Source: a virus
Lineage: Duplodnaviria; Heunggongvirae; Uroviricota; Caudoviricetes
Strand: one strand, 5' to 3'
Length of the DNA: 24,073 bases
Virus record (IMG/VR): IMGVR_UViG_2681813321_000026
Coordinates: 1 to 24,073 of that record
Shown: piece after piece, positions 1,238-20,661 of the stretch
How positions within the stretch are numbered: position 1 is the stretch's first letter
How the letters are laid out: every line of letters begins with the position of its first letter
The notes under the pieces: model-generated
Database searches by the model: none
Seen by the model: the letters and a program-made list of their open reading frames with translations, nothing else
Told to the model about the DNA's origin: nothing
Position numbers and translations under genes: made by a program

Positions 1238-1261
1238 AAAAAAGCCTTCAGGACTGAAGGC
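1238..1261 (-). terminator. Intrinsic terminator-like hairpin (8-bp stem gccttcag/ctgaaggc, 2-nt loop) followed by a T6 run on the minus strand
   Basis: Inverted repeat 1244-1251/1254-1261 with A-run 1238-1243 on plus strand; overlaps the stop codon of the 65-aa ORF. Confidence 0.4.
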
Positions 1262-1445
1262 GTCTGTAACAACCGAACTGATAGTCTGCCAGACCCGCCA
1301 TAACCAGCTGGGTCAGTATTAACTGGCAGCGTTCGCGTGAAAGGTAAGTATTCTGCGCAATCTCCCCGACGATCGCCGGTTCGGTGACGCTTAATTCATT
1401 AAACACCACTCTGGCGGTTTCGGTCATATCCTGCTGTTTCAGCAT
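1248..1445 (-). CDS. Hypothetical small protein (65 aa), possibly winged-helix DNA-binding
   Basis: ORF with ATG start at 1445 and weak A-rich SD; helix-rich segment AIVGEIAQNTYLSRERCQLILTQL resembles an HTH. Sits between Q and the esterase gene. Function not recognised. Confidence 0.3.
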   Translation of the reverse strand: MLKQQDMTETARVVFNELSVTEPAIVGEIAQNTYLSRERCQLILTQLVMAGLADYQFGCYRRLQS

Positions 1446-1560
1446 GTCTTTTTCCGGTTAACGTGACACACCAATAACTCTTGTCGAAAAAGCCAGCAAG
1501 CTGAAAGACCGGTATTCACCGCCGCCAGCGCGTTTACTGTACTGGACCGATTTCAGCCAT

Positions 1561-1590
1561 AAAAAAACCCGCTCGCGGCTGGTTTAAGCT
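1561..1590 (-). terminator. Possible weak terminator (tR'-like) about 60-80 nt downstream of Q
   Basis: T7 run on minus strand (A7 at 1561-1567 on plus) preceded by a short GC-rich imperfect hairpin (ccgc/gcgg). Stem is weak, so confidence is low. Confidence 0.2.
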
Positions 1591-1642
1591 GTGTGGCGTA
1601 GTAACCACTCTTAACATACTGACATACTTTTTGCGGACCGCG

Positions 1643-2035
1643 CTAATAATTTTTTACTTTTTTGGGCAGCCAGTCGTCCATCTCCAGCCTTACACCCAGC
1701 ATCGACAGACATCCGTCAATAAATCCTTCAGCAATCTGCATCTCAATTCGTATTGCCTTTTCGCTCTTCTTTCTTGTTCTGGCAATCTGCCTTTTTGATA
1801 TGCGCAGCAGATAATGAGCTACCAGCAGCGAATACTCGTCCGGTTTTTTCTTCTTCAGGCGCGTAAGGCAGTTTTCGATGATAAGGCCGTCATCATCGCT
1901 GCAGGCCGGGCGAGGTTTAGCGGTGGATGGTAAAAGGCCTTTAAATCCAGCAGCTATCGGAGAATAGTCCACCCCGGCGTTACCACTTGCCGCCCATGCC
2001 CCCCAGCGTTCGAGAACCATCTGAATATCACGCAT
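1643..2035 (-). CDS. Q: Late-gene antiterminator Q (82/933W-type Q family)
   Basis: Protein from the ATG at 2035 begins MRDIQMVLERWGAWAASGNAGVDYSPIAAGFKGL, recognised as phage Q antiterminator family. ORF track start at 2044 is a GTG; the ATG at 2035 overlaps the upstream stop by 1 nt (coupled). TAG stop at 1645..1643. Confidence 0.75.
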   Translation of the reverse strand: MRDIQMVLERWGAWAASGNAGVDYSPIAAGFKGLLPSTAKPRPACSDDDGLIIENCLTRLKKKKPDEYSLLVAHYLLRISKRQIARTRKKSEKAIRIEMQIAEGFIDGCLSMLGVRLEMDDWLPKKVKNY

Positions 2036-2892
2036 TATTCGCACTCACCAACCAGATTGAGAATGACCGCTGCACCGTCGTCTTCCATGCATTCACCCTT
2101 ACCACTTGCCAGAAACCAGCGGCACACCTCCACGGCTTCAGCGCGTGTCACCGGTTTGATGGTTGCCAGCAATTTTTCAAGGTAGCGCTCCCGGTCATAT
2201 ACCGATTCGTGATGCTCAGAGTAACCAAACTCATCGCCCTGTTCTTTAGTTGCAGTGTGGCGAACACTGTAGAGCCAGTCCCAGTAAACGAACTCGCGAA
2301 CAACATCAGACAGCGTATAAGGCTCAGGCAGCACATCGCGATATCCATCAACAAATGCCCGACGCTGTTCATCAATTTCGTTCATGCGGCTGCCGCCAAT
2401 GCTTCCGGCTTTTTTCTCTGCCGCAGTCCAGCCCCAGAGATGATCGTTGATAAATTTCTGGGAAGACCTGATGACCCGCTCTGCTTCCACATCTTCGAGC
2501 GCTGCTTCATAGCTACCAAACGTAGCCCTGACTGATGCCGCTTTTTTGATGTTCTCCCGGGCGTTCCTGATAACCTGCGCAGGGTTATCCATGCCGATGA
2601 TGCCGAACGCAACCTGGAAAGGTTCGTAACCATTCGCCAGCAGATAACGCGAATAGCGTTCCTGAGCCTCTTTTGGGGAAATTTTAATTTTCACCAGCGC
2701 AGCCTCAGCAGCATCCAGATGTGCGGGTTCGTTCAGACGGATAACCTCCAGCACCCAAAGATAAGCATCAGTCTGCTTATGCCCGGTGATTCTCCGTTGC
2801 TCTGGCAGGGGCTTGATGTTTGCGAGGGCGGAGCTGTACGCTGCCGTCGGGATGGTGAATAGTGCTTTATGTTCGTTATTATCAGTACGCAT
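2035..2892 (-). CDS. Hypothetical protein (285 aa) between primase and Q
   Basis: Long ORF, ATG at 2892 overlapping primase stop by 1 nt; stop overlaps Q start. No motif recognised. Confidence 0.6.
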   Translation of the reverse strand: MRTDNNEHKALFTIPTAAYSSALANIKPLPEQRRITGHKQTDAYLWVLEVIRLNEPAHLDAAEAALVKIKISPKEAQERYSRYLLANGYEPFQVAFGIIGMDNPAQVIRNARENIKKAASVRATFGSYEAALEDVEAERVIRSSQKFINDHLWGWTAAEKKAGSIGGSRMNEIDEQRRAFVDGYRDVLPEPYTLSDVVREFVYWDWLYSVRHTATKEQGDEFGYSEHHESVYDRERYLEKLLATIKPVTRAEAVEVCRWFLASGKGECMEDDGAAVILNLVGECE

Positions 2893-3860
2893 TACGCAAC
2901 CGCCTTTTTCTTATGGAAAACCAGCTCTCGAACCTGATCACCGTTCATGAGCATATTGTTGAAATCATCGTGATCCGGCCAGTACACGCTCACGCGCTGC
3001 AGGTCATTCTTTGCCATCAGATTGGCATGAGCACATTCGCAAGCCGCAGCCAGCCCGGTGGCGCTGTTCTCGTCACGGTCGGCAAAAATAATCAGGTGCA
3101 GAACACCAGCTGGTACGCGAAACTTTTTCATAAAGCCGCTGTTAATGGTTGCCCAGGTGTTCACGTTATAAATCTGGTGCGCTGACAGCGCTGTTTCGAT
3201 GCCTTCGGCGATACCCAGAGTGCTGGCGACAGGAAACATGCGGATAGCTACAGAACGAGCGTGATCCAAATAGTTATCTTCCTGCAGGGATTTGAGGCGC
3301 TTTGCACTGCTACCGATATCTGCTTTTTTATCACCATCAAGCAGAGTCTGGTGCAGATAGCACAACTCCCCTTTATCGTCCGTAGCAAGTGAATAAAGAG
3401 ACTGGAACACACTCCCGTTGTGTCTCTGCCTGGCATTGAACCGGATCGCCTCAGCAGGAAGACTGAATATTCCACGAGAATTAAGATACGCTGCGCCGGA
3501 TGTACCACGCAGTGCCTCCAGTTTTGAAAACTTGCTCAATACCCGTTTGCGTAAGCTGGTGGCGCTGCTGGTTACCGGGATTTTAACCCGTTGGTAATCA
3601 TTACCGATCAGGCGGTCTATTTCGGTACAAATCTCGTTAAATGGCTTCGCCTGTGTCAGGGTGACAAGTTTCATACCATCGCCACTACCACATACACAGA
3701 TCCACGTTCCTGCACCGTCGCGGTCGTCAATTCGGAACTTGCCACGTGCACCGCATACCGGGCATTCACCCTTGAAGTGATTTTTTCCGGTTATCGGCGG
3801 CAGACCGAAGTGCTCTAATATTTCAGGCCAGCGGCCTTTCGCTGCATCTGCTGTTTTCAT
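2892..3860 (-). CDS. DNA primase (N-terminal zinc-ribbon plus Toprim domain)
   Basis: 322-aa ORF with CPVCGARGKFRIDDRDGAGTWICVCG zinc-ribbon motif typical of phage/plasmid primases; ATG at 3860 lies 1 nt after helicase stop. Confidence 0.8.
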   Translation of the reverse strand: MKTADAAKGRWPEILEHFGLPPITGKNHFKGECPVCGARGKFRIDDRDGAGTWICVCGSGDGMKLVTLTQAKPFNEICTEIDRLIGNDYQRVKIPVTSSATSLRKRVLSKFSKLEALRGTSGAAYLNSRGIFSLPAEAIRFNARQRHNGSVFQSLYSLATDDKGELCYLHQTLLDGDKKADIGSSAKRLKSLQEDNYLDHARSVAIRMFPVASTLGIAEGIETALSAHQIYNVNTWATINSGFMKKFRVPAGVLHLIIFADRDENSATGLAAACECAHANLMAKNDLQRVSVYWPDHDDFNNMLMNGDQVRELVFHKKKAVA

Positions 3861-3861
3861 C

Positions 3862-5520
3862 TTACTGACTCAGACTGTTTATATTTTTCTGGAGTTGGTG
3901 CTTTGCCTGCATGATGCGCCAGGCCTCACTGCCTGCCGGTATCTCACGTCGTTCATCACGTTCCTGAGATAAATCAATCGTTGTTTGTGCGTTTTCAGTG
4001 ACCTTCTGAACCCGCTGGTGGCCTTTGGCAAACCGGATCAGTTTGTGTCTGATGTAGTTATTTACCTCAGGGGTAATTTCCATCGGAAAGTTACTCAGTC
4101 CGTCAGGCCACTCACCGAACTTTTCCCGGAAAGTGTGAGCACACCATCCGTCACTGACTGGACGCCCCAGCGAAGCACGCTGGCGCTGATAAAATTTGAT
4201 CTGACTCCACCAGGACTGTTTCTCTGCCTTCGTCGACTGATGCTGATTTTTACCCAGCTTATTAAGTTTGCGGCTAGTGTCAGTATCAACGTCTTCACCT
4301 CGCAGCGGCTTGTGTCCACATTTCGGGCAAACATAGACGCCTGCTGGCTTCATGTAGTGGCATTGAGGGCATTCATGTGGCAGTTTTTCGGCCCGTTCCT
4401 CAACTGCCCGGCGCGCGCTTTCCTCCATGCCGTCAGACTTACCGGGAAGCTCGTCGTACTCGATTGAATCCGGATAACCCAAACGGTGCACGGTGCCGCT
4501 GTGATCGAAGATAAGGCAGGACTCTTTACCCGGTGCGGTGCGCAGCCCACGCCCGAGAGCCTGCAACCAGCGAATTTCGCTTTTTGTTGGCCTGGCGTAG
4601 ATGATGCAACGAACGTCACTATCAAAGCCGGCCACCAGAACGCCCACACTAACGATGATTTTCGTTGCACCGGTTTCAAAGCGGTGAATGATGGTCTGGC
4701 GCTCATCTACCGGAGTGTCGGCGGTCATTACCTCAGCGTTAACACCCGCCAGGTTAAACTGGATTGTCAGATAATTGGCGTGAGCTACGTTGACGCAGAA
4801 AGCGATGGTAGGTAAATCCCGACCATTCTCCAGCCAGTTCTGTACGATGTCGCCCACCAGCGTAGAGCCGCACATGATTTCAGCCAGCTGTGTTTCGTTG
4901 TAATCGCGGCCGTACTCAAGCGAAGATGTGGTTTTAACACCTTTCAGATCCGGCTTAGTTGGCGCGTAAAATTCGTATTTACTCAGATCGCCACGCTGGA
5001 TTAACTCGCCGATGGTGGTCGGCTTAATCAGTCGGTCATAGTATTTGCCCAGGAACGGAGAAAACGGAGTACCCGACAGGCCAATCACCTTTACGCCTTT
5101 GCCGCGCAGACGTTCGATATCCTTCAGGATGCGTTTTTTACGCAGGTGCGCTTCGTCGATAATCAGCAGATCGATATTTTCAGGAAAAACACGACGAATA
5201 AGCGTGTCAGCGCTGGCAATCTGAATTTTCCGGTCCGGATCGTAGTTCGGGTGATCCGCCCAGATATAACCGATTTCATCTCCAGGTAAACCATACTGCA
5301 CGAACCGATTAGCCGTCTGACCAATCAGGATGGTGTACGGAACACAGAACAGAACACGCATACCACGGCTGACAAAACCAGCAACTATGAAGGCTGCCAG
5401 ACCCGTTTTACCGCTACCTGTTGGCGAGTAAACCATGAAGGTGTCGTTTGCCTTCCAGTCACGGCGCAACATGTTTAACGCTCGTTCCTGTGCAAAATTC
5501 GGCGTGATCGTCAGCTCCAT
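3862..5520 (-). CDS. Superfamily-2 DEAH-box helicase with C-terminal zinc ribbon (replication helicase)
   Basis: 552-aa ORF; Walker A SPTGSGKTG, motif II IIDEAH, C-terminal CPQC...CPKC. SD GGGAG 7 nt upstream of ATG at 5520. Confidence 0.85.
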   Translation of the reverse strand: MELTITPNFAQERALNMLRRDWKANDTFMVYSPTGSGKTGLAAFIVAGFVSRGMRVLFCVPYTILIGQTANRFVQYGLPGDEIGYIWADHPNYDPDRKIQIASADTLIRRVFPENIDLLIIDEAHLRKKRILKDIERLRGKGVKVIGLSGTPFSPFLGKYYDRLIKPTTIGELIQRGDLSKYEFYAPTKPDLKGVKTTSSLEYGRDYNETQLAEIMCGSTLVGDIVQNWLENGRDLPTIAFCVNVAHANYLTIQFNLAGVNAEVMTADTPVDERQTIIHRFETGATKIIVSVGVLVAGFDSDVRCIIYARPTKSEIRWLQALGRGLRTAPGKESCLIFDHSGTVHRLGYPDSIEYDELPGKSDGMEESARRAVEERAEKLPHECPQCHYMKPAGVYVCPKCGHKPLRGEDVDTDTSRKLNKLGKNQHQSTKAEKQSWWSQIKFYQRQRASLGRPVSDGWCAHTFREKFGEWPDGLSNFPMEITPEVNNYIRHKLIRFAKGHQRVQKVTENAQTTIDLSQERDERREIPAGSEAWRIMQAKHQLQKNINSLSQ

Positions 5521-5793
5521 TGTGCAGCTCCCGTGCTGATGAGATAATAATTTTGTGATGTGGTTTTCATGGATTCCCCCTCACATGGCTGGTGGCCTCC
5601 CCAAAGGCTGCCAGCCTCCCTTCTGATTCAGCTCCTCTGAAAAATCACTCTTCCAGGAAGAACCCTTTTCGTTTCTCAGCGCCTGAGCGCTTTGTACTAC
5701 CTTGCTGATACGGGCGTTTTTTTAAATTGCGCCCTTAAGACAGTGATCTACTTAACCAATGGATCTCTCCTGTTGGAAAAGACCCTATTCCTG

Positions 5794-5836
5794 CCCCAAC
5801 ACCCAATCCCCCCTTACCCCCCTTACCCTCTTCCCC
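5794..5836 (-). other. C-rich (plus) / G-rich (minus) tract with six runs of 3-6 G: potential G-quadruplex motif on the minus strand
   Basis: Plus strand ccccaacacccaatccccccttaccccccttaccctcttcccc; includes tandem ccccccTTA units. Lies in the 413-bp non-coding gap between the 102-aa ORF and the helicase gene. Confidence 0.4.
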
Positions 5837-5933
5837 ATAAAAACGTACTACTTCCCTAGTACACATGAGGAGTTGGGTCAGTTGGTTGCCAACCTGAACA
5901 GGCACCTTTAAGCCTGCTTCTGTTCGGGTACCT

Positions 5934-6242
5934 TTAAACCCGAAACAGTGAGGAGCGCGATTGCGATCCAGCCAGGGGAGGTTCGGCTGTATACCCCTGT
6001 AAAGCTCTGCCCTGATTTCTTACAAACAGGCGGAGCCTTGTGTTTGCTTCGTGCCTTGCTCTGTTCTCCTTGCGGAATGAAACAGGCTCAGCGTCAAAAG
6101 TGATTTCGTATACCTCCGCATATTTCAGGGCAACCTTCCGTCTCAGTGACGGAGGCAGCCCCTGTAACTGCTGCTGAATCCACTCTTCGTCTGCCTGGCA
6201 GTACCTAGATGGCATCTCTGTCTGAACGTAATTCTGGGACAT
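5934..6242 (-). CDS. Hypothetical protein (102 aa) in the cII/replication-initiator position
   Basis: ATG at 6242 with strong SD (GGGAGGTGA); overlaps the 3' end of the cro-like gene by 38 nt in another frame. No motif recognised. Confidence 0.55.
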   Translation of the reverse strand: MSQNYVQTEMPSRYCQADEEWIQQQLQGLPPSLRRKVALKYAEVYEITFDAEPVSFRKENRARHEANTRLRLFVRNQGRALQGYTAEPPLAGSQSRSSLFRV

Positions 6243-6492
6243 ACAAGCCCTTCACCTCCCCCGTGCGCGCTAAGCTTGGATGTGGAAAAAGCTCTGATAG
6301 GTCTGGCCGAAATTCATACGCTTGGATCTTTCCGTCGACAGCTGCAACCAATAACGGCACAAATTCTGGTGAAATCTTGTTCTTGCAGTTCAACCAATCG
6401 CAGACTGTTGACTGGGCCTTTCCGCATCGCTTGGCTAAGGCTTGCTGACTTCCAAGAATCTCAATAGCTTTCTCTATGGCTTTATGTTTCAT
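6205..6492 (-). CDS. Cro-like HTH regulator (Cro/CI-type, YdaS-like), 95 aa
   Basis: Start set to ATG at 6492 (MKHKAIEKAIEILGSQQALAKRCGKAQSTVCDW, HTH) with SD AGGAGA 7 nt upstream; ORF track start at 6543 is an upstream in-frame extension. Divergent from cI. Confidence 0.75.
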   Translation of the reverse strand: MKHKAIEKAIEILGSQQALAKRCGKAQSTVCDWLNCKNKISPEFVPLLVAAVDGKIQAYEFRPDLSELFPHPSLARTGEVKGLYVPELRSDRDAI

Positions 6493-6493
6493 A

Positions 6494-6578
6494 ATCGCAT
6501 CTCCTATTGAACGCATAATAACAACAGGAAAAGCGATATTCAACGTTAAACATAGAATATTTATCGGAAAGCCGATAA
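6494..6578. promoter_or_regulatory. OR-like divergent promoter/operator region between cro-like and cI genes
   Basis: Palindromic 14-mers ATCGCatctCCtAT (6494-6507) and ATCGGaaagCCGAT (6563-6576). Candidate minus-strand cro promoter TTGAAT-N17-TATTAT (-35 at 6543..6538, -10 at 6520..6515). Candidate plus-strand -10 TAGAAT at 6553-6558 with poor -35 (PRM-like). Confidence 0.5.
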
Positions 6579-6611
6579 ACTAGCCAAGATAGAGAGGGGA
6601 GGAAAATCGCA

Positions 6612-7304
6612 ATGACATTTTCAGAACGACTTGATTTAGCTATGCGCAACGCAAAATTTACGCAAGGTAGGCTGGCCAAAGAAGTGGGTATGGCTCAGTC
6701 CAGTGTTAATCAACTACTTAACAAAGCCAACGGTTCCAGAAAAACAGTCGAAATAGCAAAAGTTTTGGGCGTTAACCCGGAATGGCTCGCATCGGGTGTT
6801 GGCCCAATGGAAATCGTGACCTCTGCAGACTCACACCAAATACGTAACATTTCTGAAGATTGGGTTACTGATTCGTATGTCGTGGATGTTTTAGACATCA
6901 GATATAGTTGCGGACCTGGTAGTTATAACTCTGATTTTCCTGATATTGTCAGATCTATAGCGATAGAACCAGGATACGCATCAAGAGTTTTTGGCGGCAG
7001 ACCAGCATCAGCAATCAAAGCAATAAACGCCCACGGCGACAGTATGAAAGGCACAATAGACCCTGAAGACTTGGTATTTGTAGATGTATCAGTTCGCACA
7101 TTTAATGGTGATGGTATATACGCCTTTACATACTCTGGAACATCGCACATCAAAAGACTTCAAAAAATCAAAGATACTCTAACGGTGATATCTGACAACC
7201 CAGCTTACAAGGATTGGGCTATCGAACCGGAAGACTTCGAACAACTTCACATTGACGGAAAAGTAATTGTCAGTTGGCCTATGACACTACACCGTTTTGC
7301 ATAA
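6612..7304 (+). CDS. cI: CI-type prophage repressor (N-terminal XRE HTH, C-terminal S24 LexA-like peptidase domain)
   Basis: 230 aa; HTH QGRLAKEVGMAQSSVNQL; S24 catalytic motifs GDSM and downstream Lys; SD GGAGG upstream of ATG. Confidence 0.9.
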   Translation: MTFSERLDLAMRNAKFTQGRLAKEVGMAQSSVNQLLNKANGSRKTVEIAKVLGVNPEWLASGVGPMEIVTSADSHQIRNISEDWVTDSYVVDVLDIRYSCGPGSYNSDFPDIVRSIAIEPGYASRVFGGRPASAIKAINAHGDSMKGTIDPEDLVFVDVSVRTFNGDGIYAFTYSGTSHIKRLQKIKDTLTVISDNPAYKDWAIEPEDFEQLHIDGKVIVSWPMTLHRFA

Positions 7305-7322
7305 GCAAAAATCATTTAACCC

Positions 7323-7348
7323 GCCCACTCTTAAGTGGGCTTTTTTTT
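7323..7348 (+). terminator. Rho-independent terminator after cI
   Basis: Perfect 7-bp stem gcccact/agtgggc with 4-nt loop ctta followed by T8. Confidence 0.8.
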
Positions 7349-7356
7349 GGGAAAAA

Positions 7357-7398
7357 ATCGATAAACCGATTGACAGGTGAAATCGGTAAACCTATTAT
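7357..7398 (+). promoter_or_regulatory. PL-like promoter with two operator sites
   Basis: TTGACA (7370-7375), 17-nt spacer, TATTAT (7393-7398). Operator-like 14-mers ATCGAtaaaCCGAT (7357-7370, overlapping -35) and ATCGGtaaaCCtAT (7382-7395, overlapping spacer/-10), same family as the OR sites. Confidence 0.7.
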
Positions 7399-7447
7399 CT
7401 TGACATAGGTATCGAACTCACCAAAGCAATTATAGAGGATGAGAAAA

Positions 7448-7858
7448 ATGTCATCGTATATGGGATTACCAACAAATCAGCACGATGCTCTTGAGAATAT
7501 TCAGCTCTTAGTAGGGACTGGTGCACTACTGTATAGCAGCAATAACCCTGAGTTAATTGAACTTGCCAGCTCCATCCTGGCTGTAACTCAAAAATATAGC
7601 CTCACCGCGTCACGTTTATGCAAACAAAATTTAGCTATTAATTCCCAGAATCGGATTCGCACCCAACGCGAAACCTGCGGCTTAACAACCGCCGAACTCG
7701 CTAGGCTGCTCGATCTCGATGAAGAAATTATCATCCAGTGGGAGAGCGGAGAGTACGAACCAACCATCAGCATGCTTATCCCTCTGGCTAATGTTCTTGG
7801 CTGTGATCCAATGTTGTTATTGACTGATGCTTATAAACAAAATCAGGAGGAAGCATAA
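7448..7858 (+). CDS. Hypothetical protein with C-terminal XRE-family HTH (first gene of PL operon)
   Basis: Start set to ATG 7448 (SD GAGGA 8 nt upstream); track start 7439 has no spacing to the SD. C-terminal HTH LTTAELARLLDLDEEIIIQWESGEYEPTISMLIPLANVLG. Confidence 0.6.
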   Translation: MSSYMGLPTNQHDALENIQLLVGTGALLYSSNNPELIELASSILAVTQKYSLTASRLCKQNLAINSQNRIRTQRETCGLTTAELARLLDLDEEIIIQWESGEYEPTISMLIPLANVLGCDPMLLLTDAYKQNQEEA

Positions 7859-7859
7859 G

Positions 7860-8051
7860 ATGAAAATGTTCAAAGGCCTTACCAACGAACCGGAGACAAC
7901 TTTTCATCACATTGCCGTACTGCTTGAAGCGGGGTTAATCATTTCGGCTTCCGGTGATGAAGAATGTGATGAACTTTCGGATGATATCTTTTTACTGGCA
8001 CAACAATACGCCAGAAGCGCATGCGATGCATTTAAGGAGCAAAGAACATGA
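7860..8051 (+). CDS. Small acidic hypothetical protein (63 aa)
   Basis: ATG 7860 preceded by AGGAGG (9-nt spacing); track ORF 7827 is an in-frame upstream extension overlapping the previous gene. Confidence 0.55.
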   Translation: MKMFKGLTNEPETTFHHIAVLLEAGLIISASGDEECDELSDDIFLLAQQYARSACDAFKEQRT

Positions 8052-8239
8052 AAACTCCATTAAATATTCTTGAGGAAGTGGCAGCACAAATAAAAGAGAA
8101 TACATCAATGCTTGAATTTATATTTAAGAATTCGCCCGACTCAGGAGAGACAGACGATTATTTATGTTGCCTCATTCGCTCCATGAATAAAACCTGTGAA
8201 ATGGCTTACGCGTATATCGACACACTGCGCAACGAATAA
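8048..8239 (+). CDS. Small acidic hypothetical protein (63 aa)
   Basis: ATG overlaps stop of previous gene (ATGA coupling). Confidence 0.55.
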   Translation: MKTPLNILEEVAAQIKENTSMLEFIFKNSPDSGETDDYLCCLIRSMNKTCEMAYAYIDTLRNE

Positions 8240-8423
8240 AGAAAACTCAATAAACAATCACCCATAAAAACATAACGGTCTCTGGTCGGGAATTTCCACA
8301 ACCTGAAAATGGTGGTGATGCATGAAAAACAGAAGTGCTTATAAAACCGCATTATTAATGGCTAATGCAGGATACTGGTCAGTTGCAATACTGTTTCTCA
8401 GGAAAGCATACGGGAAATAACAA

Positions 8424-8783
8424 ATGACACATGAACCCATTAATACATATCGTCGCCGTATAGCTGTTGCGGCACTCCATCGAATAAAACGTAAAACAGG
8501 TGGTAATCTGCTTATTGTTGACCTTCCTGATGGGAACATTACGACCATAGAAATAACTGAACAGTTTATAAACCAGTTGCTGTTACGCTTCGAAGGTATT
8601 ACCCGTGGTGAATTGGGCCGGGTGGAGGGTGAAACCGAAATCCACACTGCATACCAGAATGCTATCGGGATTAATCAACATACTGAATACCTGACTGAAA
8701 CCGGAAAGTTAATTATAGACAACCTTTTTCAAGAGATTATTGATTACGCGAAAGAAAAATATATCAGCGGAGGAATTAACTGA
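8424..8783 (+). CDS. Hypothetical protein (119 aa)
   Basis: ORF with ATG start; stop overlaps start of next gene. No motif recognised. Confidence 0.5.
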   Translation: MTHEPINTYRRRIAVAALHRIKRKTGGNLLIVDLPDGNITTIEITEQFINQLLLRFEGITRGELGRVEGETEIHTAYQNAIGINQHTEYLTETGKLIIDNLFQEIIDYAKEKYISGGIN

Positions 8784-8998
8784 TGGCTAATTTATCCCCT
8801 GTATCTGTTGTGCACGAAAAAGTGCAGATCGTTATGACAATTGAAAATGGCCAAGTCACAGGTGTCTGCAAAGTCCGCGATGGCGAGCTGATTGCCAGCA
8901 TGGATACATTCATACGGCTGGCAGAAAGAGCGGGGTATCAGATAACAGCACCTGCTCAGGAGGAAACCGGTGGCATTAACAGCAACACGCATTCCTGA
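8783..8998 (+). CDS. Hypothetical protein (71 aa)
   Basis: ATG 8783 with GGAGGA 8 nt upstream, overlapping stop of previous gene. Confidence 0.55.
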   Translation: MANLSPVSVVHEKVQIVMTIENGQVTGVCKVRDGELIASMDTFIRLAERAGYQITAPAQEETGGINSNTHS

Positions 8999-9184
8999 GC
9001 GGATCCACCGGCAGGCATTGCAGGTCCTGTTGTTGTACCGATGCCGACGGATATTTCCGCATCGGATACAGCGCACCGGATATCTCAGTCTGAAGGTTAA
9101 CCGTCGCTGGCGGCTGTTATCGAAAGACGACGGCCGGAACTGGGAAGTAATGAGTCATGAACGTTATTCGGGAGAAATAAAGAA

Positions 9185-9577
9185 ATGATCGACAACCGCA
9201 CCGCCAGCACCATTGACCAGGCATTACAGAAACATGATACACCCGTCGGCCCGTTATTTTTTGTAACACGCCACGGAAGAACAAAAAAATGCCTCACCCG
9301 AAAAACGGCAATTCGTTACCTGGCATTCTTTATGACCACCCGCGCTTTTGAACGTTCAGGATTCCGACAACGCTATCCTGACAAGCGTTTTATCTTCAAC
9401 AGGAATGAGATATGGAAACGTGGAGAATCAACCACAGAGTATACCCGCGCACACCAGCGAACAATCAGACGACTGCGCAGACTCATCGCCAGGAAACAGT
9501 ATACAGAAAAATGGTTCAGAAAATATGACACATGGAGCGCCGGATATTACGAACTGATGGCAACAAAACCATTCTGA
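9185..9577 (+). CDS. Hypothetical basic protein (130 aa, Arg/Lys-rich C-terminus)
   Basis: ATG 9185 with GGGAGA upstream. No motif recognised. Confidence 0.5.
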   Translation: MIDNRTASTIDQALQKHDTPVGPLFFVTRHGRTKKCLTRKTAIRYLAFFMTTRAFERSGFRQRYPDKRFIFNRNEIWKRGESTTEYTRAHQRTIRRLRRLIARKQYTEKWFRKYDTWSAGYYELMATKPF

Positions 9578-9637
9578 CGTAAACGAAATTAACCATGACG
9601 CAATTAAATAAGGCAAGCCGAATACATCAGGAGGACC

Positions 9638-9826
9638 ATGAACATTTATTTCAGAATAGTTATATCACTGGCAATTATCACATGTATTTACGGATTAATC
9701 GTTCCGGCCCTCATATCAATGAAGGATACGGTAGCAGTGATTTCTGGCTTTGCTCTGGCGTGTCTGACCCCGCCCTGCATTTATGCCATTTATAAGGGTC
9801 TTTCTTTTTCTAAGGATAAAAGATGA
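9638..9826 (+). CDS. Small membrane protein (62 aa, two predicted TM helices)
   Basis: AGGAGGA upstream of ATG; two hydrophobic stretches; stop overlaps start of SPFH gene (ATGA). Confidence 0.55.
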   Translation: MNIYFRIVISLAIITCIYGLIVPALISMKDTVAVISGFALACLTPPCIYAIYKGLSFSKDKR

Positions 9827-10137
9827 AAAAATTACTTTTTGCTTTAGCCCTTGTTCTGCCGACCATTGGCCTTGTCGGTTGCGATCGCGTTGAGCCTGGT
9901 AATGTGGGCATCAAAGTAAACAAACTGGGCGACGATAAAGGCGTCGGTGAAGTGGTCGGTGTTGGGCGCTACTGGACGGGATGGAACACTGAGGTTTACA
10001 TCTTCCCGACCTTTAAGCAGATGAAGACCTACGATGATCCATTCAGTTTCCAGATGAGTGACGGTACAACCATCGGCTATCACATCGGCGTGGCCTACAA
10101 AGTTGATCCATCCAAAGTTACCACAGTCTTTCAGACC

Positions 10138-10167
<30 letters not shown>
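9823..10167 (+). pseudogene. Truncated copy of SPFH/band-7 lipoprotein gene (first 105 codons, then unrelated sequence after repeat boundary at 10137)
   Basis: Identical to the first 105 codons of the 275-aa gene at 19791-20618, then diverges and terminates after 9 foreign codons. Confidence 0.75.
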
Positions 10168-13550
<3,383 letters not shown>

Positions 13551-13576
<26 letters not shown>

Positions 13577-14096
13577 TCAGCAACCCCGGTATCAGTTCAT
13601 CCAGCGCGGCTGCTTTGTTCATGGCTTTGATGATATCCCGTTTCAGGAAATCAACATGTCGGTTTTCCAGTTCCGGAAAACGCCGCTGCACCGACAGGGG
13701 GAGCCCGTCGAGAATACTGGCAATTTCACCTGCGATCCGCGACAACACGAAAGTACAGAATGCGGTTTCCACCACTTCAGCGGAGTCTCTGGCATTCTTC
13801 AGTTCCTGTGCGTCGGCCTGCGCACGCGTAAGTCGATGGCGTTCGTACTCAATAGTTCCTGGCTGGAGATCTGCCTCGCTGGCCTGCCGCAGTTCTTCAA
13901 CCTCCCGGCGCAGCTTTTCGTTCTCAATTTCAGCATCCCTTTCGGCATACCATTTTATGACGGCGGCAGAGTCATAAAGCACCTCATTACCCTTGCCACC
14001 GCCTCGCAGAACGGGCATTCCCTGTTCCTGCCAGTTCTGAATGGTACGGATACTCGCACCGAAAATGTCAGCCAGCTGCTTTTTGTTGACTTCCAT
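13551..14096 (-). CDS. nu1: Terminase small subunit (lambda Nu1, 181 aa)
   Basis: Translation MEVNKKQLADIFGASIRTIQNWQEQGMPVLRGGGKGNEVLYDSAAVIKWYAERDAE... recognised as lambda Nu1; overlaps A start as in lambda. Confidence 0.95.
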
Positions 14097-14283
14097 TGTT
14101 CATTCCACGGCCAAAAACAGAGAAAGGAAACGACAAAGGCCCAAAAGTTCGTTTTCAGCACCTGTCGTTTCCTTTCTTTTCAGGGGGTATTTTAAATAAA
14201 AACATTAAGTTACGACGAAGAAGAACGGAAACGCCTTAAACCGGAAAATTTTCATAAATAGCGAAAACCCGCGAGGTCGCCGC

Positions 14284-14295
14284 CCCGTAGCCTGC
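14284..14295 (-). other. cosN cohesive-end site (12-nt GGGCGGCGACCT on minus strand); cosB lies between here and Nu1
   Basis: Plus strand aggtcgccgccc at 14284-14295 is the reverse complement of the lambda left cohesive end; the following 190 bp toward Nu1 matches the lambda left end from memory with a few substitutions. Confidence 0.85.
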
Positions 14296-14522: not shown

Positions 14523-14663
14523 ATGATTAATCAAATCCATATTGCCCTTGAACGTAAGGGATCGGGTAATTTTTCGGCATGGGTTATTGAAGCCTGCAGG
14601 AGAAGGCTGGCAACAGATGCAAAGCACCTGCGCCCGGCCAGCATGAAAAATAACGAGAAATGA
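14523..14663 (+). CDS. Small hypothetical protein (46 aa) in the cos-proximal right-end region
   Basis: ORF MINQIHIALERKGSGNFSAWVIEACRRRL...; resembles from memory the last small ORF before cos in lambda. An upstream ATG at 14491 is out of frame. Below track size cutoff. Confidence 0.3.
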   Translation: MINQIHIALERKGSGNFSAWVIEACRRRLATDAKHLRPASMKNNEK

Positions 14664-14795
14664 ACGTTCGGTTACAGGAACCGGTAGCTACTGTCTTCTA
14701 ACAATATTTCATCTTCATATCCGGCGAAACAAGACTTTACCCTGCAGGGATGTACTGAATAGCAACAGAGTGATAATTAACTTCTGATAAAATAA

Positions 14796-15122
14796 TCAGG
14801 GTGCTGAAGGACTAAAGATAAATGTTTTCTTCACGCCTTTACGCGGCTTGTCCTTCTCAAATCGCCATTTTGCCATCGCCTTTACAACCTGCTCATCAAA
14901 CAGATGGTGCGGCTCTGAACGGATAAACTCAATTCGGGTGACAGTACCATCAGCACCAATATCAAACTTCACATCAACCCGTCCCTTTATATAATTTGCC
15001 GCGGCATAGGCCGGATATTGTGGTAATGCCTTAACCAACTGTCGAGGCATATCTGTTTTATGTTGCGTACAGCCCATAACCAAAGAAGACAACAAAATAA
15101 TTAACGGAAGATTTCTTTTCAT
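14796..15122 (-). CDS. Lipoprotein consisting of a TonB C-terminal-like domain (about 108 aa)
   Basis: Signal peptide MKRNLPLIILLSSLVMGC with lipobox-like VMGC; mature region PQYPAYAAANYIKGRVDVKFDIGADGTVTRIEFIRSEPHHLFDEQVVKAMAKWRFEKDKP aligns closely with E. coli TonB C-terminal domain (PQYPARAQALRIEGQVKVKFDV...AMRRWRYEPGKP) from memory. Alternative upstream ATG at 15137 has no SD. Confidence 0.75.
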   Translation of the reverse strand: MKRNLPLIILLSSLVMGCTQHKTDMPRQLVKALPQYPAYAAANYIKGRVDVKFDIGADGTVTRIEFIRSEPHHLFDEQVVKAMAKWRFEKDKPRKGVKKTFIFSPSAP

Positions 15123-15138
15123 TTTTATTCCCGGCATA

Positions 15139-15158
15139 GATAAGAATAAGTCTTATTC
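15139..15158. promoter_or_regulatory. AT-rich perfect palindrome (GAATAAG-T-CTTATTC preceded by GATAA) overlapping the putative promoter of the TonB-like gene
   Basis: 7-1-7 perfect inverted repeat at 15144-15158; overlaps a minus-strand TAGAAT -10-like hexamer; partial resemblance to Fur-box GATAAT hexamers. Confidence 0.3.
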
Positions 15159-15761
15159 TAACAATGCAGCCCTGTCGGTCATCAATCCTCTGCTTAATGG
15201 CAATGACAATTATCCGACTTAAATCACAAATCAGACACATGACATAACAGAGTTTGCGAGGTAACACATCGTCCGGTTTCTTCCACCATCGCACCGGACC
15301 AGCGACCATGAGGGGACAACGCCGCGCTCCGTTTACGCGGTAAACCCCGGTGTGTATCGTTTTTGATTATCCCCGCACACTCTCGCAGAGGAGTCTCCCT
15401 GTCGGGCTGCGGTCTCTGTTAATGCAGGAATACGGCGACAATACCGCGCATGGATAATAAGGTCGCTCAACACACTGGCTGTAATTCAGCGGATACCATT
15501 CGGCATTTATCAGTATTCATCACACACTCAACGGTGAATTCTTCATGCGTGGCATTCACTTCATATGTTCGTGAATAACATTCAGTGCATTTACCTCTGA
15601 ACACCTCTTCAATCACTCTTCCAGGAAGAACCCTTTTCGTTTCTCAGCGCCTGAGCGCTTTGTACTACCTTGCTGATACGGGCGTTTTTTTAAATTGCGC
15701 CCTTAAGACAGTGATCTACTTAACCAATGGATCTCTCCTGTTGGAAAAGACCCTATTCCTG

Positions 15762-15804
15762 CCCCAACACCCAATCCCCCCTTACCCCCCTTACCCTCTT
15801 CCCC
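15762..15804 (-). other. Second copy of the C-rich/G-rich potential G-quadruplex tract
   Basis: Identical to 5794-5836. Confidence 0.4.
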
Positions 15805-15901
15805 ATAAAAACGTACTACTTCCCTAGTACACATGAGGAGTTGGGTCAGTTGGTTGCCAACCTGAACAGGCACCTTTAAGCCTGCTTCTGTTCGGGTACC
15901 T

Positions 15902-16210
15902 TTAAACCCGAAACAGTGAGGAGCGCGATTGCGATCCAGCCAGGGGAGGTTCGGCTGTATACCCCTGTAAAGCTCTGCCCTGATTTCTTACAAACAGGCG
16001 GAGCCTTGTGTTTGCTTCGTGCCTTGCTCTGTTCTCCTTGCGGAATGAAACAGGCTCAGCGTCAAAAGTGATTTCGTATACCTCCGCATATTTCAGGGCA
16101 ACCTTCCGTCTCAGTGACGGAGGCAGCCCCTGTAACTGCTGCTGAATCCACTCTTCGTCTGCCTGGCAGTACCTAGATGGCATCTCTGTCTGAACGTAAT
16201 TCTGGGACAT
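15902..16210 (-). CDS. Hypothetical protein (102 aa), copy 2
   Basis: Identical to 5934-6242. Confidence 0.55.
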   Translation of the reverse strand: MSQNYVQTEMPSRYCQADEEWIQQQLQGLPPSLRRKVALKYAEVYEITFDAEPVSFRKENRARHEANTRLRLFVRNQGRALQGYTAEPPLAGSQSRSSLFRV

Positions 16211-16460
16211 ACAAGCCCTTCACCTCCCCCGTGCGCGCTAAGCTTGGATGTGGAAAAAGCTCTGATAGGTCTGGCCGAAATTCATACGCTTGGATCTTTC
16301 CGTCGACAGCTGCAACCAATAACGGCACAAATTCTGGTGAAATCTTGTTCTTGCAGTTCAACCAATCGCAGACTGTTGACTGGGCCTTTCCGCATCGCTT
16401 GGCTAAGGCTTGCTGACTTCCAAGAATCTCAATAGCTTTCTCTATGGCTTTATGTTTCAT
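16173..16460 (-). CDS. Cro-like HTH regulator, copy 2
   Basis: Identical to 6205-6492. Confidence 0.75.
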   Translation of the reverse strand: MKHKAIEKAIEILGSQQALAKRCGKAQSTVCDWLNCKNKISPEFVPLLVAAVDGKIQAYEFRPDLSELFPHPSLARTGEVKGLYVPELRSDRDAI

Positions 16461-16461
16461 A

Positions 16462-16546
16462 ATCGCATCTCCTATTGAACGCATAATAACAACAGGAAAA
16501 GCGATATTCAACGTTAAACATAGAATATTTATCGGAAAGCCGATAA
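16462..16546. promoter_or_regulatory. OR-like promoter/operator region, copy 2
   Basis: Identical to 6494-6578. Confidence 0.5.
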
Positions 16547-16579
16547 ACTAGCCAAGATAGAGAGGGGAGGAAAATCGCA

Positions 16580-17272
16580 ATGACATTTTCAGAACGACTT
16601 GATTTAGCTATGCGCAACGCAAAATTTACGCAAGGTAGGCTGGCCAAAGAAGTGGGTATGGCTCAGTCCAGTGTTAATCAACTACTTAACAAAGCCAACG
16701 GTTCCAGAAAAACAGTCGAAATAGCAAAAGTTTTGGGCGTTAACCCGGAATGGCTCGCATCGGGTGTTGGCCCAATGGAAATCGTGACCTCTGCAGACTC
16801 ACACCAAATACGTAACATTTCTGAAGATTGGGTTACTGATTCGTATGTCGTGGATGTTTTAGACATCAGATATAGTTGCGGACCTGGTAGTTATAACTCT
16901 GATTTTCCTGATATTGTCAGATCTATAGCGATAGAACCAGGATACGCATCAAGAGTTTTTGGCGGCAGACCAGCATCAGCAATCAAAGCAATAAACGCCC
17001 ACGGCGACAGTATGAAAGGCACAATAGACCCTGAAGACTTGGTATTTGTAGATGTATCAGTTCGCACATTTAATGGTGATGGTATATACGCCTTTACATA
17101 CTCTGGAACATCGCACATCAAAAGACTTCAAAAAATCAAAGATACTCTAACGGTGATATCTGACAACCCAGCTTACAAGGATTGGGCTATCGAACCGGAA
17201 GACTTCGAACAACTTCACATTGACGGAAAAGTAATTGTCAGTTGGCCTATGACACTACACCGTTTTGCATAA
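16580..17272 (+). CDS. cI: CI-type prophage repressor, copy 2
   Basis: Identical to 6612-7304. Confidence 0.9.
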   Translation: MTFSERLDLAMRNAKFTQGRLAKEVGMAQSSVNQLLNKANGSRKTVEIAKVLGVNPEWLASGVGPMEIVTSADSHQIRNISEDWVTDSYVVDVLDIRYSCGPGSYNSDFPDIVRSIAIEPGYASRVFGGRPASAIKAINAHGDSMKGTIDPEDLVFVDVSVRTFNGDGIYAFTYSGTSHIKRLQKIKDTLTVISDNPAYKDWAIEPEDFEQLHIDGKVIVSWPMTLHRFA

Positions 17273-17290
17273 GCAAAAATCATTTAACCC

Positions 17291-17316
17291 GCCCACTCTT
17301 AAGTGGGCTTTTTTTT
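17291..17316 (+). terminator. Rho-independent terminator after cI, copy 2
   Basis: Identical to 7323-7348. Confidence 0.8.
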
Positions 17317-17324
17317 GGGAAAAA

Positions 17325-17366
17325 ATCGATAAACCGATTGACAGGTGAAATCGGTAAACCTATTAT
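17325..17366 (+). promoter_or_regulatory. PL-like promoter with operators, copy 2
   Basis: Identical to 7357-7398. Confidence 0.7.
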
Positions 17367-17415
17367 CTTGACATAGGTATCGAACTCACCAAAGCAATTA
17401 TAGAGGATGAGAAAA

Positions 17416-17826
17416 ATGTCATCGTATATGGGATTACCAACAAATCAGCACGATGCTCTTGAGAATATTCAGCTCTTAGTAGGGACTGGTGCACTACTGT
17501 ATAGCAGCAATAACCCTGAGTTAATTGAACTTGCCAGCTCCATCCTGGCTGTAACTCAAAAATATAGCCTCACCGCGTCACGTTTATGCAAACAAAATTT
17601 AGCTATTAATTCCCAGAATCGGATTCGCACCCAACGCGAAACCTGCGGCTTAACAACCGCCGAACTCGCTAGGCTGCTCGATCTCGATGAAGAAATTATC
17701 ATCCAGTGGGAGAGCGGAGAGTACGAACCAACCATCAGCATGCTTATCCCTCTGGCTAATGTTCTTGGCTGTGATCCAATGTTGTTATTGACTGATGCTT
17801 ATAAACAAAATCAGGAGGAAGCATAA
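17416..17826 (+). CDS. Hypothetical protein with C-terminal XRE HTH, copy 2
   Basis: Identical to 7448-7858. Confidence 0.6.
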   Translation: MSSYMGLPTNQHDALENIQLLVGTGALLYSSNNPELIELASSILAVTQKYSLTASRLCKQNLAINSQNRIRTQRETCGLTTAELARLLDLDEEIIIQWESGEYEPTISMLIPLANVLGCDPMLLLTDAYKQNQEEA

Positions 17827-17827
17827 G

Positions 17828-18019
17828 ATGAAAATGTTCAAAGGCCTTACCAACGAACCGGAGACAACTTTTCATCACATTGCCGTACTGCTTGAAGCGG
17901 GGTTAATCATTTCGGCTTCCGGTGATGAAGAATGTGATGAACTTTCGGATGATATCTTTTTACTGGCACAACAATACGCCAGAAGCGCATGCGATGCATT
18001 TAAGGAGCAAAGAACATGA
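17828..18019 (+). CDS. Small acidic hypothetical protein (63 aa), copy 2
   Basis: Identical to 7860-8051. Confidence 0.55.
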   Translation: MKMFKGLTNEPETTFHHIAVLLEAGLIISASGDEECDELSDDIFLLAQQYARSACDAFKEQRT

Positions 18020-18207
18020 AAACTCCATTAAATATTCTTGAGGAAGTGGCAGCACAAATAAAAGAGAATACATCAATGCTTGAATTTATATTTAAGAATT
18101 CGCCCGACTCAGGAGAGACAGACGATTATTTATGTTGCCTCATTCGCTCCATGAATAAAACCTGTGAAATGGCTTACGCGTATATCGACACACTGCGCAA
18201 CGAATAA
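18016..18207 (+). CDS. Small acidic hypothetical protein (63 aa), copy 2
   Basis: Identical to 8048-8239. Confidence 0.55.
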   Translation: MKTPLNILEEVAAQIKENTSMLEFIFKNSPDSGETDDYLCCLIRSMNKTCEMAYAYIDTLRNE

Positions 18208-18391
18208 AGAAAACTCAATAAACAATCACCCATAAAAACATAACGGTCTCTGGTCGGGAATTTCCACAACCTGAAAATGGTGGTGATGCATGAAAAACAG
18301 AAGTGCTTATAAAACCGCATTATTAATGGCTAATGCAGGATACTGGTCAGTTGCAATACTGTTTCTCAGGAAAGCATACGGGAAATAACAA

Positions 18392-18751
18392 ATGACACAT
18401 GAACCCATTAATACATATCGTCGCCGTATAGCTGTTGCGGCACTCCATCGAATAAAACGTAAAACAGGTGGTAATCTGCTTATTGTTGACCTTCCTGATG
18501 GGAACATTACGACCATAGAAATAACTGAACAGTTTATAAACCAGTTGCTGTTACGCTTCGAAGGTATTACCCGTGGTGAATTGGGCCGGGTGGAGGGTGA
18601 AACCGAAATCCACACTGCATACCAGAATGCTATCGGGATTAATCAACATACTGAATACCTGACTGAAACCGGAAAGTTAATTATAGACAACCTTTTTCAA
18701 GAGATTATTGATTACGCGAAAGAAAAATATATCAGCGGAGGAATTAACTGA
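18392..18751 (+). CDS. Hypothetical protein (119 aa), copy 2
   Basis: Identical to 8424-8783. Confidence 0.5.
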   Translation: MTHEPINTYRRRIAVAALHRIKRKTGGNLLIVDLPDGNITTIEITEQFINQLLLRFEGITRGELGRVEGETEIHTAYQNAIGINQHTEYLTETGKLIIDNLFQEIIDYAKEKYISGGIN

Positions 18752-18966: not shown

Positions 18967-19152
18967 GCGGATCCACCGGCAGGCATTGCAGGTCCTGTTG
19001 TTGTACCGATGCCGACGGATATTTCCGCATCGGATACAGCGCACCGGATATCTCAGTCTGAAGGTTAACCGTCGCTGGCGGCTGTTATCGAAAGACGACG
19101 GCCGGAACTGGGAAGTAATGAGTCATGAACGTTATTCGGGAGAAATAAAGAA

Positions 19153-19545: not shown

Positions 19546-19605
19546 CGTAAACGAAATTAACCATGACGCAATTAAATAAGGCAAGCCGAATACATCAGGA
19601 GGACC

Positions 19606-20618: not shown

Positions 20619-20661
20619 TACATATGCCCGGTATTACACGCCGGGCTGTCTGGAGATAAAA

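What the first reader, a model, noticed from the sequence alone, without database searches (positions are those of the whole stretch)
10120..10160. Novel junction fusing mid-portal gene to mid-SPFH gene
At 10137/10138 the repeat ends inside the SPFH lipoprotein gene (after codon 105) and abuts the lambda portal gene B missing about 95 C-terminal codons, on the opposite strand. Both genes are destroyed and two chimeric ORFs result (9823-10167 plus strand, 9844-11451 minus strand). No IS end, att-like repeat or obvious microhomology was seen, so this looks like illegitimate recombination or a chimeric join.
Basis: seen in the sequence. Interest (0 to 1): 0.6.

Follow-up and report, generated by a model that had tools for sequence, protein, structure and literature searches.

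The report
Scaffold gap mimicking prophage gene fusion
The apparent blunt fusion of a phage portal gene to an SPFH gene sits on a single unknown base (N) that joins two contigs in a draft E. coli assembly, so the fusion as written was never sequenced; at most it hides an ordinary prophage rearrangement at an 11-base shared sequence.

Summary
The coordinates check out. A perfect 4,495-nt repeat (5643-10137 = 15611-20105) ends after SPFH codon 105 and abuts a lambda-type portal gene cut after codon 438.

The window is the first 24 kb of E. coli draft contig CYBF01000001.1 (GCA_001285025.1). In that record base 10138 is 'N'; the window shows 'A'. The junction is therefore a scaffold join, not read-through sequence.

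The last 11 nt before the N (TCTTTCAGACC) also occur in every native lambda-type portal gene examined, ending 55 nt to the left of the base matching window 10139. The likeliest reading is a real SPFH-to-portal junction at that 11-nt homology, with 55 nt lost from the scaffold. Both chimeric ORFs would keep their frame and gain 18 codons.

The partner junction (15610|15611, 2-nt overlap) is contiguous sequence. It recurs at 99.98% identity in an independent IMG/VR contig whose portal gene is intact. An intact SPFH copy lies at 19791-20618.

Overall this is a rearranged lambdoid prophage with a loop in the assembly graph. Whether that loop is a tandem duplication, a circle or a mis-join needs the reads. 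Interest is low.

The parts
1..5642 (-). Segment A. It starts at the contig start inside a SASA esterase gene. It carries Q antiterminator (1643-2044), a 285-aa ORF, toprim primase (2892-3860) and DEAD-box helicase (3862-5520). Its junction with R at 5642|5643 is native.
   Evidence: It is contiguous with R at 99.86% identity in the E110019 prophage. The A|R boundary pattern occurs in 34 IMG/VR contigs. Pfam domains are listed.
5643..10137 (+). Repeat copy R1: immunity and early-left region (YdaS/cro-like gene, LexA/S24 repressor 6612-7304, HTH protein, ParE-like gene and others). It ends after codon 105 of the SPFH gene.
   Evidence: It is 100% identical to 15611-20105.
9823..10137 (+). 5' 105 codons of the SPFH/Band_7 lipoprotein gene (truncated copy).
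   Evidence: Translation. Pfam PF01145 matches residues 22-106.
10127..10137 (+). TCTTTCAGACC, the last 11 nt before the gap. The same 11-mer is present in native lambda-type portal genes, ending 55 nt left of the base matching 10139. It is the probable true crossover site.
   Evidence: On both strands of the window, the only 11-mers shared with the 100-nt native portal flank that do not depend on the substituted base at 10138 are the ones ending at 10137 and 20105.
10138..10138 (.). The base that is 'N' in the public record (shown as 'A' in the window). It is a scaffold-gap placeholder and probably stands for 55 nt of portal sequence.
   Evidence: it is the single difference between the window and CYBF01000001.1 over 21,451 nt.
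10139..11451 (-). Lambda-family portal gene (gpB type), N-terminal about 438 codons. This is the left end of segment X.
   Evidence: PF05136 at E = 2.8e-97. It aligns to lambda DE3 gpB. Native context is shown.
11448..14096 (-). gpW head-tail joining protein (11448-11654), large terminase gpA (11651-13576) and small terminase Nu1 (13551-14096).
   Evidence: Pfam domains. The TerL protein is identical to that of lambda DE3 and many other prophages.
14274..14285 (-). Exact match to the cosN core GGGCGGCGACCT.
14523..15610 (.). Right end of X: DUF3950 gene (14523-14663, +), TonB_C-domain gene (14796-15122, -), and the 3' part of a 74-aa gene that normally lies beside Rz. X is cut at 15610.
15609..15612 (.). 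Second novel joint, J2 (15610|15611). X is joined to the start of R with a 2-nt 'AA' overlap. Relative to a normal lambdoid layout the lysis, Q and replication genes are missing.
   Evidence: It is contiguous in the record, with no N. It is absent from 5,426 complete E. coli genomes. It is present in IMGVR_UViG_2537561991_000013 at 99.98% identity.
15611..20105 (+). Repeat copy R2. It continues natively into the rest of the SPFH gene.
19791..20618 (+). Intact SPFH/Band_7 lipoprotein gene (275 aa).
   Evidence: The same gene is annotated in E110019.
9844..11451 (-). Chimeric ORF as printed (535 aa), deposited as CTT16737.1 'phage portal protein'. It would be 553 aa if the 55 nt are restored.

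Best explanation
The join at 10137|10138 is a scaffolder's link between two contigs of a short-read draft assembly, marked by a single N. It is not a sequenced fusion.

Behind it there is most likely a real recombination joint between the SPFH gene and the portal gene of a lambdoid prophage. That joint would have formed at an 11-nt sequence (TCTTTCAGACC) that both genes carry in the same orientation, about 17 kb apart in a normal prophage of this type. The 55 nt of portal sequence that should follow the 11-mer were dropped by the assembler.

With the second joint (15610|15611) this gives the order A-R-[J1]-X-[J2]-R-B. That order is a cycle in the assembly graph. It is what a tandem duplication at short homology followed by an internal deletion would give. 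It is equally what a deleted circular phage derivative recombined into the prophage would give.

Shown: the N, the repeat, the 11-mer geometry, and J2 in an independent contig.
Inferred: that reads span the 11-mer joint, the order of events, and whether the loop is chromosomal.
For: - The N lies exactly at the join in the public record.
- The terminal 11-mer of R1 occurs in all native lambda-type portal genes examined, ending 55 nt left of the X start. This includes the near-identical L016 contig.
- On both strands of the 24-kb window, apart from the overlapping 11-mer that uses the substituted base at 10138, only the two R ends share an 11-mer with that 100-nt portal flank. Chance is about 4e-5 per end position.
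- Restoring the 55 nt keeps both chimeric ORFs in frame, because 54 nt are added net.
- 55 = k-12 for k = 67. That is the length of a junction-specific node in a de Bruijn graph. It is also the lowest odd k allowed by the Sanger Velvet pipeline for 100-nt reads (k is 66-90% of read length, PMC5320598).
- X has the orientation it would have in its native position relative to A, as a duplication predicts.
- In the EC9682 prophage the two 11-mers are direct repeats 17,201 nt apart.
- J2 is read-contiguous and inherited.
- RecA-independent joining at microhomologies of about 9 bp is the established route of aberrant lambda excision in E. coli (PMC11372144).
Against: - No read or contig containing the predicted joint was found. 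The predicted 553-aa and 132-aa products are absent from 15 billion proteins. The 28-nt joint pattern is absent from viral, GTDB-representative and metagenome contigs.
- In the related IMG/VR contig, X continues into an intact portal with no break. X therefore has a competing native left neighbour.
- I cannot explain how a short-read pipeline printed a 4.5-kb perfect repeat twice, or why the gap is 1 N rather than about 55 (note).
- Assignment of the assembly to the Velvet/SSPACE/GapFiller pipeline is an inference from the accession and annotation style. The paper itself warns that this pipeline makes false joins.
- Identity of the two R copies proves nothing if both were built from one read pool.
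Confidence: 0.57

Rival explanations
1. Pure assembly artefact. The genome has no SPFH-portal adjacency at all. It carries a defective prophage H-X-J2-R-B, as in the IMG/VR contig. It also carries a separate prophage or sub-population with A-R-B. A greedy scaffolder and gap-filler wrongly placed the A-R contig in front of the X contig, and R1 is the A contig extended into the shared repeat.
For: - There is an N at the join.
- The independent contig shows X natively attached to an intact portal, and J2-R with no A.
- The pipeline paper states that SSPACE and GapFiller are greedy, can make false joins and are run 16 and 120 times.
- A 4.5-kb perfect repeat inside a short-read scaffold is suspicious in itself.
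- No other assembly carries the join.
Against: - It leaves the 11-mer coincidence unexplained. R1 ends exactly at a sequence found 55 nt beyond the start of X, at about 4e-5 by chance.
- It gives no reason for contig breaks at exactly these two points.
- It offers no source for read pairs linking the two contig ends.
- A false closure on an 11-nt overlap would have kept the 55 nt and left no N.
Confidence: 0.28
2. This is a blunt, homology-free illegitimate fusion of SPFH codon 105 to portal codon 438, exactly as printed, giving chimeric proteins of 114 aa and 535 aa.
For: The window sequence reads this way. The 535-aa product is deposited as CTT16737.1.
Against: - The joining base is N in the record, so no read-through is documented.
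- The deposited protein is just a translation across GCN.
- The 11-mer geometry points to a joint 55 nt away.
Confidence: 0.03
3. The junction is real but not chromosomal. A circular deletion derivative of the phage genome is closed at the 11-nt homology. It coexists with the defective prophage H-X-J2-R-B as an episome or in a sub-population. Its content would be terminase-cos-lysis-Q-replication-immunity, about 17-19 kb, or the 10-kb R-X loop as printed. The assembler threaded this circle into the chromosome.
For: - The assembly graph implied by the four boundaries has a cycle, and a cycle cannot be told apart from an integrated duplication (inference).
- The related genome has X and R without breaks, hence probably once each.
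- A carries the primase and helicase genes, and X carries cos and terminase.
Against: No origin has been identified and no depth information is available. Nothing has been seen as a separate contig. Stable maintenance of such a circle under its own repressor is unproven.
Confidence: 0.1

Closest known systems
Scaffold joins and gap placeholders in short-read draft assemblies (Velvet/SSPACE/GapFiller-type pipelines, PMC5320598)
   Same: A single N lies exactly between two blocks that have no sequence continuity. A repeat ends at the gap. The contig begins at another repeat boundary. The pipeline paper describes N gaps at read-pair joins and warns of false joins.
   Different: The flanks are not random. 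The left flank ends in an 11-mer that belongs to the sequence missing from the right flank. This argues that a real junction underlies the gap.
Short-homology (microhomology) illegitimate recombination in E. coli lambda lysogens (lambda bio/Spi- transducing phage formation; Ikeda and co-workers, as summarised in PMC11372144)
   Same: The prophage is lambdoid. The joint lies between unrelated sequences sharing about 9-11 nt. No site-specific or transposon signature is present.
   Different: Both partners here are phage genes, not phage and host. The product looks like an internal duplication or loop rather than an excised transducing genome. The joint itself is not in the record.
Tandem duplication join points at short repeats, and MMBIR/template-switch complex rearrangements (PMC2621351; PMC11111574)
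   Same: Both copies are in direct orientation. Two novel joints have 11-nt and 2-nt overlaps. Duplicated and deleted segments are interleaved.
   Different: Copy number and contiguity are unverified. The events may be sequential rather than a single template-switching episode.
Lambda dv-type deletion plasmids and defective lambdoid prophages (from my own knowledge)
   Same: These are deletion derivatives that keep the immunity and replication genes or the structural genes only. J2 removes the lysis, Q and replication genes and is inherited.
   Different: There is no evidence here of autonomous replication.

Membership tests
Assembly scaffold gap | Ambiguous base(s) (N) in the deposited record at the join | tested here: met
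   Record CYBF01000001.1 has N at the position matching window 10138. It is the only difference in 21,451 nt.
Assembly scaffold gap | No independent sequence spans the join | tested here: met
   None of 5,426 complete E. coli genomes spans it. The GTDB representatives have no match. The chimeric protein is on a single contig.
Short-homology illegitimate recombination joint | A short identical sequence present in both parental sequences at the crossover point | tested here: met
   TCTTTCAGACC ends R (SPFH gene). It is also in native portal genes 66-56 nt left of the X start, on the same strand.
Short-homology illegitimate recombination joint | A recombinant molecule whose sequence runs parent 1, shared motif, parent 2 | tested here: inconclusive
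   The 55 nt that should follow the motif are replaced by N. The predicted joint was not found in any searchable collection.
Tandem duplication | Two copies in direct orientation with a novel join of segment end to segment start | tested here: inconclusive
   R is printed twice in direct orientation, and X is oriented as in its native place. Copy number is unverifiable in a short-read scaffold.
IS or transposon insertion | Terminal inverted repeats, a transposase gene and a short target-site duplication | tested here: not met
   There are no terminal inverted repeats at either end of X. X encodes only terminase, portal and cos-region genes. The 'duplication' is 4,495 nt.
Site-specific (att) recombination | A core sequence next to an integrase, recurring at the same site in other genomes | tested here: not met
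   The joint is unique to this record. The 11-mer lies inside conserved coding sequence of two unrelated genes. The integrase is 12 kb away at 22787 onward.
Lambda-family portal protein (PF05136) | Full-length match to the family profile and a native-length protein of 533 aa | tested here: met
   The Pfam profile is covered at 2-354 of 354, E = 2.8e-97. As printed, the C-terminal 95 residues are replaced. With the 55 nt restored, about 74 residues would be replaced.

The most novel reading that the evidence does not exclude
The strain carries two complementary deletion derivatives of one lambdoid phage. One is a chromosomal prophage that keeps the head, tail, terminase, immunity and integrase genes but lacks the lysis, Q and replication genes (joint J2). 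The other is a cos-bearing circular mini-replicon with terminase, lysis, Q, replication and immunity genes, closed at the 11-nt SPFH/portal homology (joint J1). Together they would hold a complete phage gene set.
Probability: 0.07. Interest if true: 0.5.

Novelty: already known. Interest (0 to 1): 0.13.

Why it matters
The main value is as a caution. A single N in a draft scaffold, silently turned into a base, produces a convincing 'novel gene fusion' with two chimeric ORFs, one of which is already deposited as a protein (CTT16737.1).

Biologically, the locus shows ordinary instability of a lambdoid prophage. One deletion joint (J2) strips the lysis, Q and replication genes and is inherited in at least two assemblies. 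A probable short-homology joint links two phage genes. Neither opens a new question.

Tried and rejected
- Lab lambda or cloning-vector contamination: rejected. X is only 98.9% identical to lambda over 79% of its length and matches natural E. coli prophages better.
- IS, transposon or att explanation: rejected.
- Phage satellite (PICI-like) reading of the helicase/primase island: rejected. The same genes sit in ordinary full-length lambdoid prophages.
- Search for the printed join and for the repaired join in complete E. coli genomes, GTDB representatives, IMG/VR and JGI metagenomes: nothing found.
- Exact look-up of the predicted repaired chimeric proteins: absent. This was expected if other assemblers break at the repeat, so it is uninformative.
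- Paper search for the accession: nothing found.
- The residual similarity of the antisense tail to the portal C-terminus in BLASTP (alignment running to residue 476) comes from the shared 11-mer (GLK) plus chance.
- The 97-codon open antisense tail lies in the codon-aligned antisense frame of SPFH. Its stop codons would correspond to rare sense codons, so its length is not remarkable (inference).
- Attempts to reconstruct which step of Velvet, SSPACE or GapFiller printed R twice and left one N did not give a consistent account (note).

Full report
WHAT IS IN THE WINDOW

The window holds one exact direct repeat of 4,495 nt, 5643-10137 = 15611-20105. Identity stops at 10137/20105 and at 5643/15611. 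I call the blocks A (1-5642), R1, X (10138-15610), R2 and B (20106-end).

A, R and B together are an ordinary lambdoid prophage arm. It runs Q antiterminator, a 285-aa ORF, toprim primase and DEAD-box helicase on the minus strand. It then has a cro-like gene and a LexA/S24 repressor, and the early-left genes including an SPFH/Band_7 lipoprotein, ORF6N and the integrase on the plus strand. A-R (1448-10137) and R-B (15611-22148) are each contiguous with the E110019 prophage at 99.85-99.86% identity. The A|R boundary occurs in 34 IMG/VR contigs. So 5642|5643 and 20105|20106 are native junctions.

X is the left end of a lambda-type late region on the minus strand. It carries portal (first 438 codons), gpW, gpA, Nu1, an exact cosN core at 14274-14285, a DUF3950 gene, a TonB_C gene and the 3' part of a small gene that normally sits next to Rz. 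X is 98% identical to natural E. coli prophages and 98.9% identical to lambda over 79% of its length. It is therefore not laboratory lambda.

There are 105 SPFH codons and 438 of 533 portal codons, with chimeric ORFs at 9823-10167 and 9844-11451.

THE JOIN IS A GAP

The 535-aa chimeric product is on record on only one contig, CYBF01000001.1 of E. coli assembly GCA_001285025.1 (280,924 nt). It is deposited as CTT16737.1. The window is the first 24 kb of that contig. Over the 21,451 nt I could fetch, the record and the window differ at one base. Window 10138 is 'A' and the record has 'N'.

The N falls on the third position of a GCN codon on the minus strand. That is why the deposited protein still reads Ala there. 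The 'junction' is therefore the point where two contigs, 1-10137 and 10139 onward, were linked with a one-base placeholder.

No complete E. coli genome (5,426 searched) and no GTDB representative spans it.

A HIDDEN 11-NT HOMOLOGY

I aligned the sequence a native portal gene has to the left of the X start against the end of R1. This gave an exact 11-mer, TCTTTCAGACC. It is the last 11 nt of R1 (10127-10137). In every native lambda-type portal gene fetched, it ends 55 nt to the left of the base matching window 10139. This holds for lambda DE3 in BL21, several E. coli prophages and the near-identical L016 contig.

On both strands of the window, the only 11-mers shared with that 100-nt portal flank that do not depend on the substituted base at 10138 are the ones ending R1 and R2. 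An arbitrary contig end would do this about 4e-5 of the time.

The simplest reading is that reads in this sample run SPFH...TCTTTCAGACC then portal, with crossover inside the 11-mer. On this reading the N stands for the next 55 nt.

Restoring them adds a net 54 nt, so both chimeric ORFs stay open and in frame, at 553 aa and 132 aa. The portal would then lose about 74 rather than 95 codons.

The number 55 equals k-12 for k = 67. That is the size of the junction-specific node in a de Bruijn graph when both parental contexts are also present. It is also the lowest odd k the Sanger Velvet pipeline would try for 100-nt reads. This part is inference, and the link of this assembly to that pipeline rests only on accession and annotation style.

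In the EC9682 prophage, which has both a lambda-type head module and this SPFH arm, the two 11-mers are direct repeats 17,201 nt apart. Exchange between them would give a tandem duplication, or in a circular genome a deletion. The result is exactly an SPFH' to portal' joint, with X in the orientation seen here.

THE PARTNER JOINT

X is joined to R2 at 15610|15611 with a 2-nt 'AA' overlap. This joint has no N. It is absent from complete E. coli genomes. Its 29-nt pattern occurs once in IMG/VR, in IMGVR_UViG_2537561991_000013.

That contig matches window 10139-19472 at 99.98% identity (2 mismatches) straight through J2. To the left it continues into an intact 533-aa portal gene that carries the 11-mer and the 55 nt.

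J2 is therefore real and inherited. It defines a defective prophage in which head, tail, terminase and cos genes are fused directly to the immunity region. The lysis, Q and replication genes are absent.

None of the 34 IMG/VR contigs with the A|R boundary comes from that genome. That genome probably has X and R only once.

PUTTING IT TOGETHER

The source sample contains four native contexts (A-R, R-B and, by inference, native portal-X and its rightward continuation). It also contains J2 and very probably J1.

These boundaries define a cycle in the assembly graph. The cycle can be read as A-R-J1-X-J2-R-B, which is the order printed. It can also be read as H-X-J2-R-J1-X-...-A-R-B. A third reading is a chromosome carrying H-X-J2-R-B plus a circle closed at J1. 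Short reads cannot choose between these.

A tandem duplication at the 11-mer followed by the J2 deletion in one copy would give the printed order. Homologous loop-out between the copies would then give the structure seen in IMG/VR.

Joining at microhomologies of about 9 bp, independent of RecA, is the established mechanism of aberrant lambda excision in E. coli (PMC11372144). Complex duplication and deletion patterns with 2-11 nt overlaps are also what template-switch models describe (PMC2621351).

WHAT REMAINS UNEXPLAINED

I could not derive how a short-read pipeline printed a 4.5-kb perfect repeat twice in one scaffold. I also could not derive why the gap is 1 N rather than about 55 (note).

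The pipeline paper says its scaffolder and gap-filler are greedy, are run 16 and 120 times, and can make false joins. A pure mis-join therefore keeps a substantial probability, about 0.28. Its weakness is that it makes the 11-mer geometry a coincidence.

The predicted joint was not found anywhere else. That is expected for a private rearrangement and for assemblers that break at repeats, so it decides nothing.

VERDICT

The best-supported account is a scaffold gap over a short-homology joint in a rearranged, partly duplicated lambdoid prophage. Both kinds of thing are well known. Interest is low, and the useful lesson is methodological.

Noticed in passing
window 15610|15611; L016 3848-3876: A second novel joint (J2) fuses the cos-proximal region directly to the immunity region and removes the lysis, Q and replication genes. 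It recurs at 99.98% identity in IMGVR_UViG_2537561991_000013, where the portal gene is intact. It is therefore an inherited defective-prophage architecture, not seen in 5,426 complete E. coli genomes.
   Followed up: yes
window 10138: The window shows 'A' where the public record has 'N'. By chance, 'A' is also the base that follows the 11-mer in native portal genes. Ambiguity codes in the source were evidently replaced before the first-stage read.
   Followed up: yes
window 1: The window starts at the very first base of contig CYBF01000001.1, inside a SASA-family esterase gene. The rest of that gene and the lysis cassette must lie on other contigs. This suggests another repeat boundary shared with other lambdoid prophages of the strain.
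   Followed up: partly
window 9844-10137 (minus strand): The 97-codon open tail of the chimeric portal ORF lies in the codon-aligned antisense frame of the SPFH gene. Its length probably reflects rare sense codons rather than any function.
   Followed up: partly
window 14523-15122: Two small cargo-like genes lie between cos and the lysis side: a DUF3950 gene (+) and a 108-aa TonB C-terminal-domain protein (-). Other lambda-type prophages have Bor/DUF1398 or YlcI/YnfO genes at this place.
   Followed up: no
window 8970-9188 and 18938-19156: A ParE-like toxin-family ORF (PF24732) sits in the early-left operon upstream of the SPFH gene. The record's gene caller called it in only one of the two identical repeat copies.
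   Followed up: no
L007/L008 and L011/L012: Single complete genomes carry two prophages with identical large-terminase proteins and lambda-type head modules. Many deposited portal proteins are 'partial' at contig ends. This shows how often this module breaks short-read assemblies.
   Followed up: no
L001 22379-23592 (E110019): The closest complete relative of the A-R-B arm carries an IS3-family insertion and several frameshifted genes (Q, TerB-like, terminase, portal). The window lacks this insertion.
   Followed up: no
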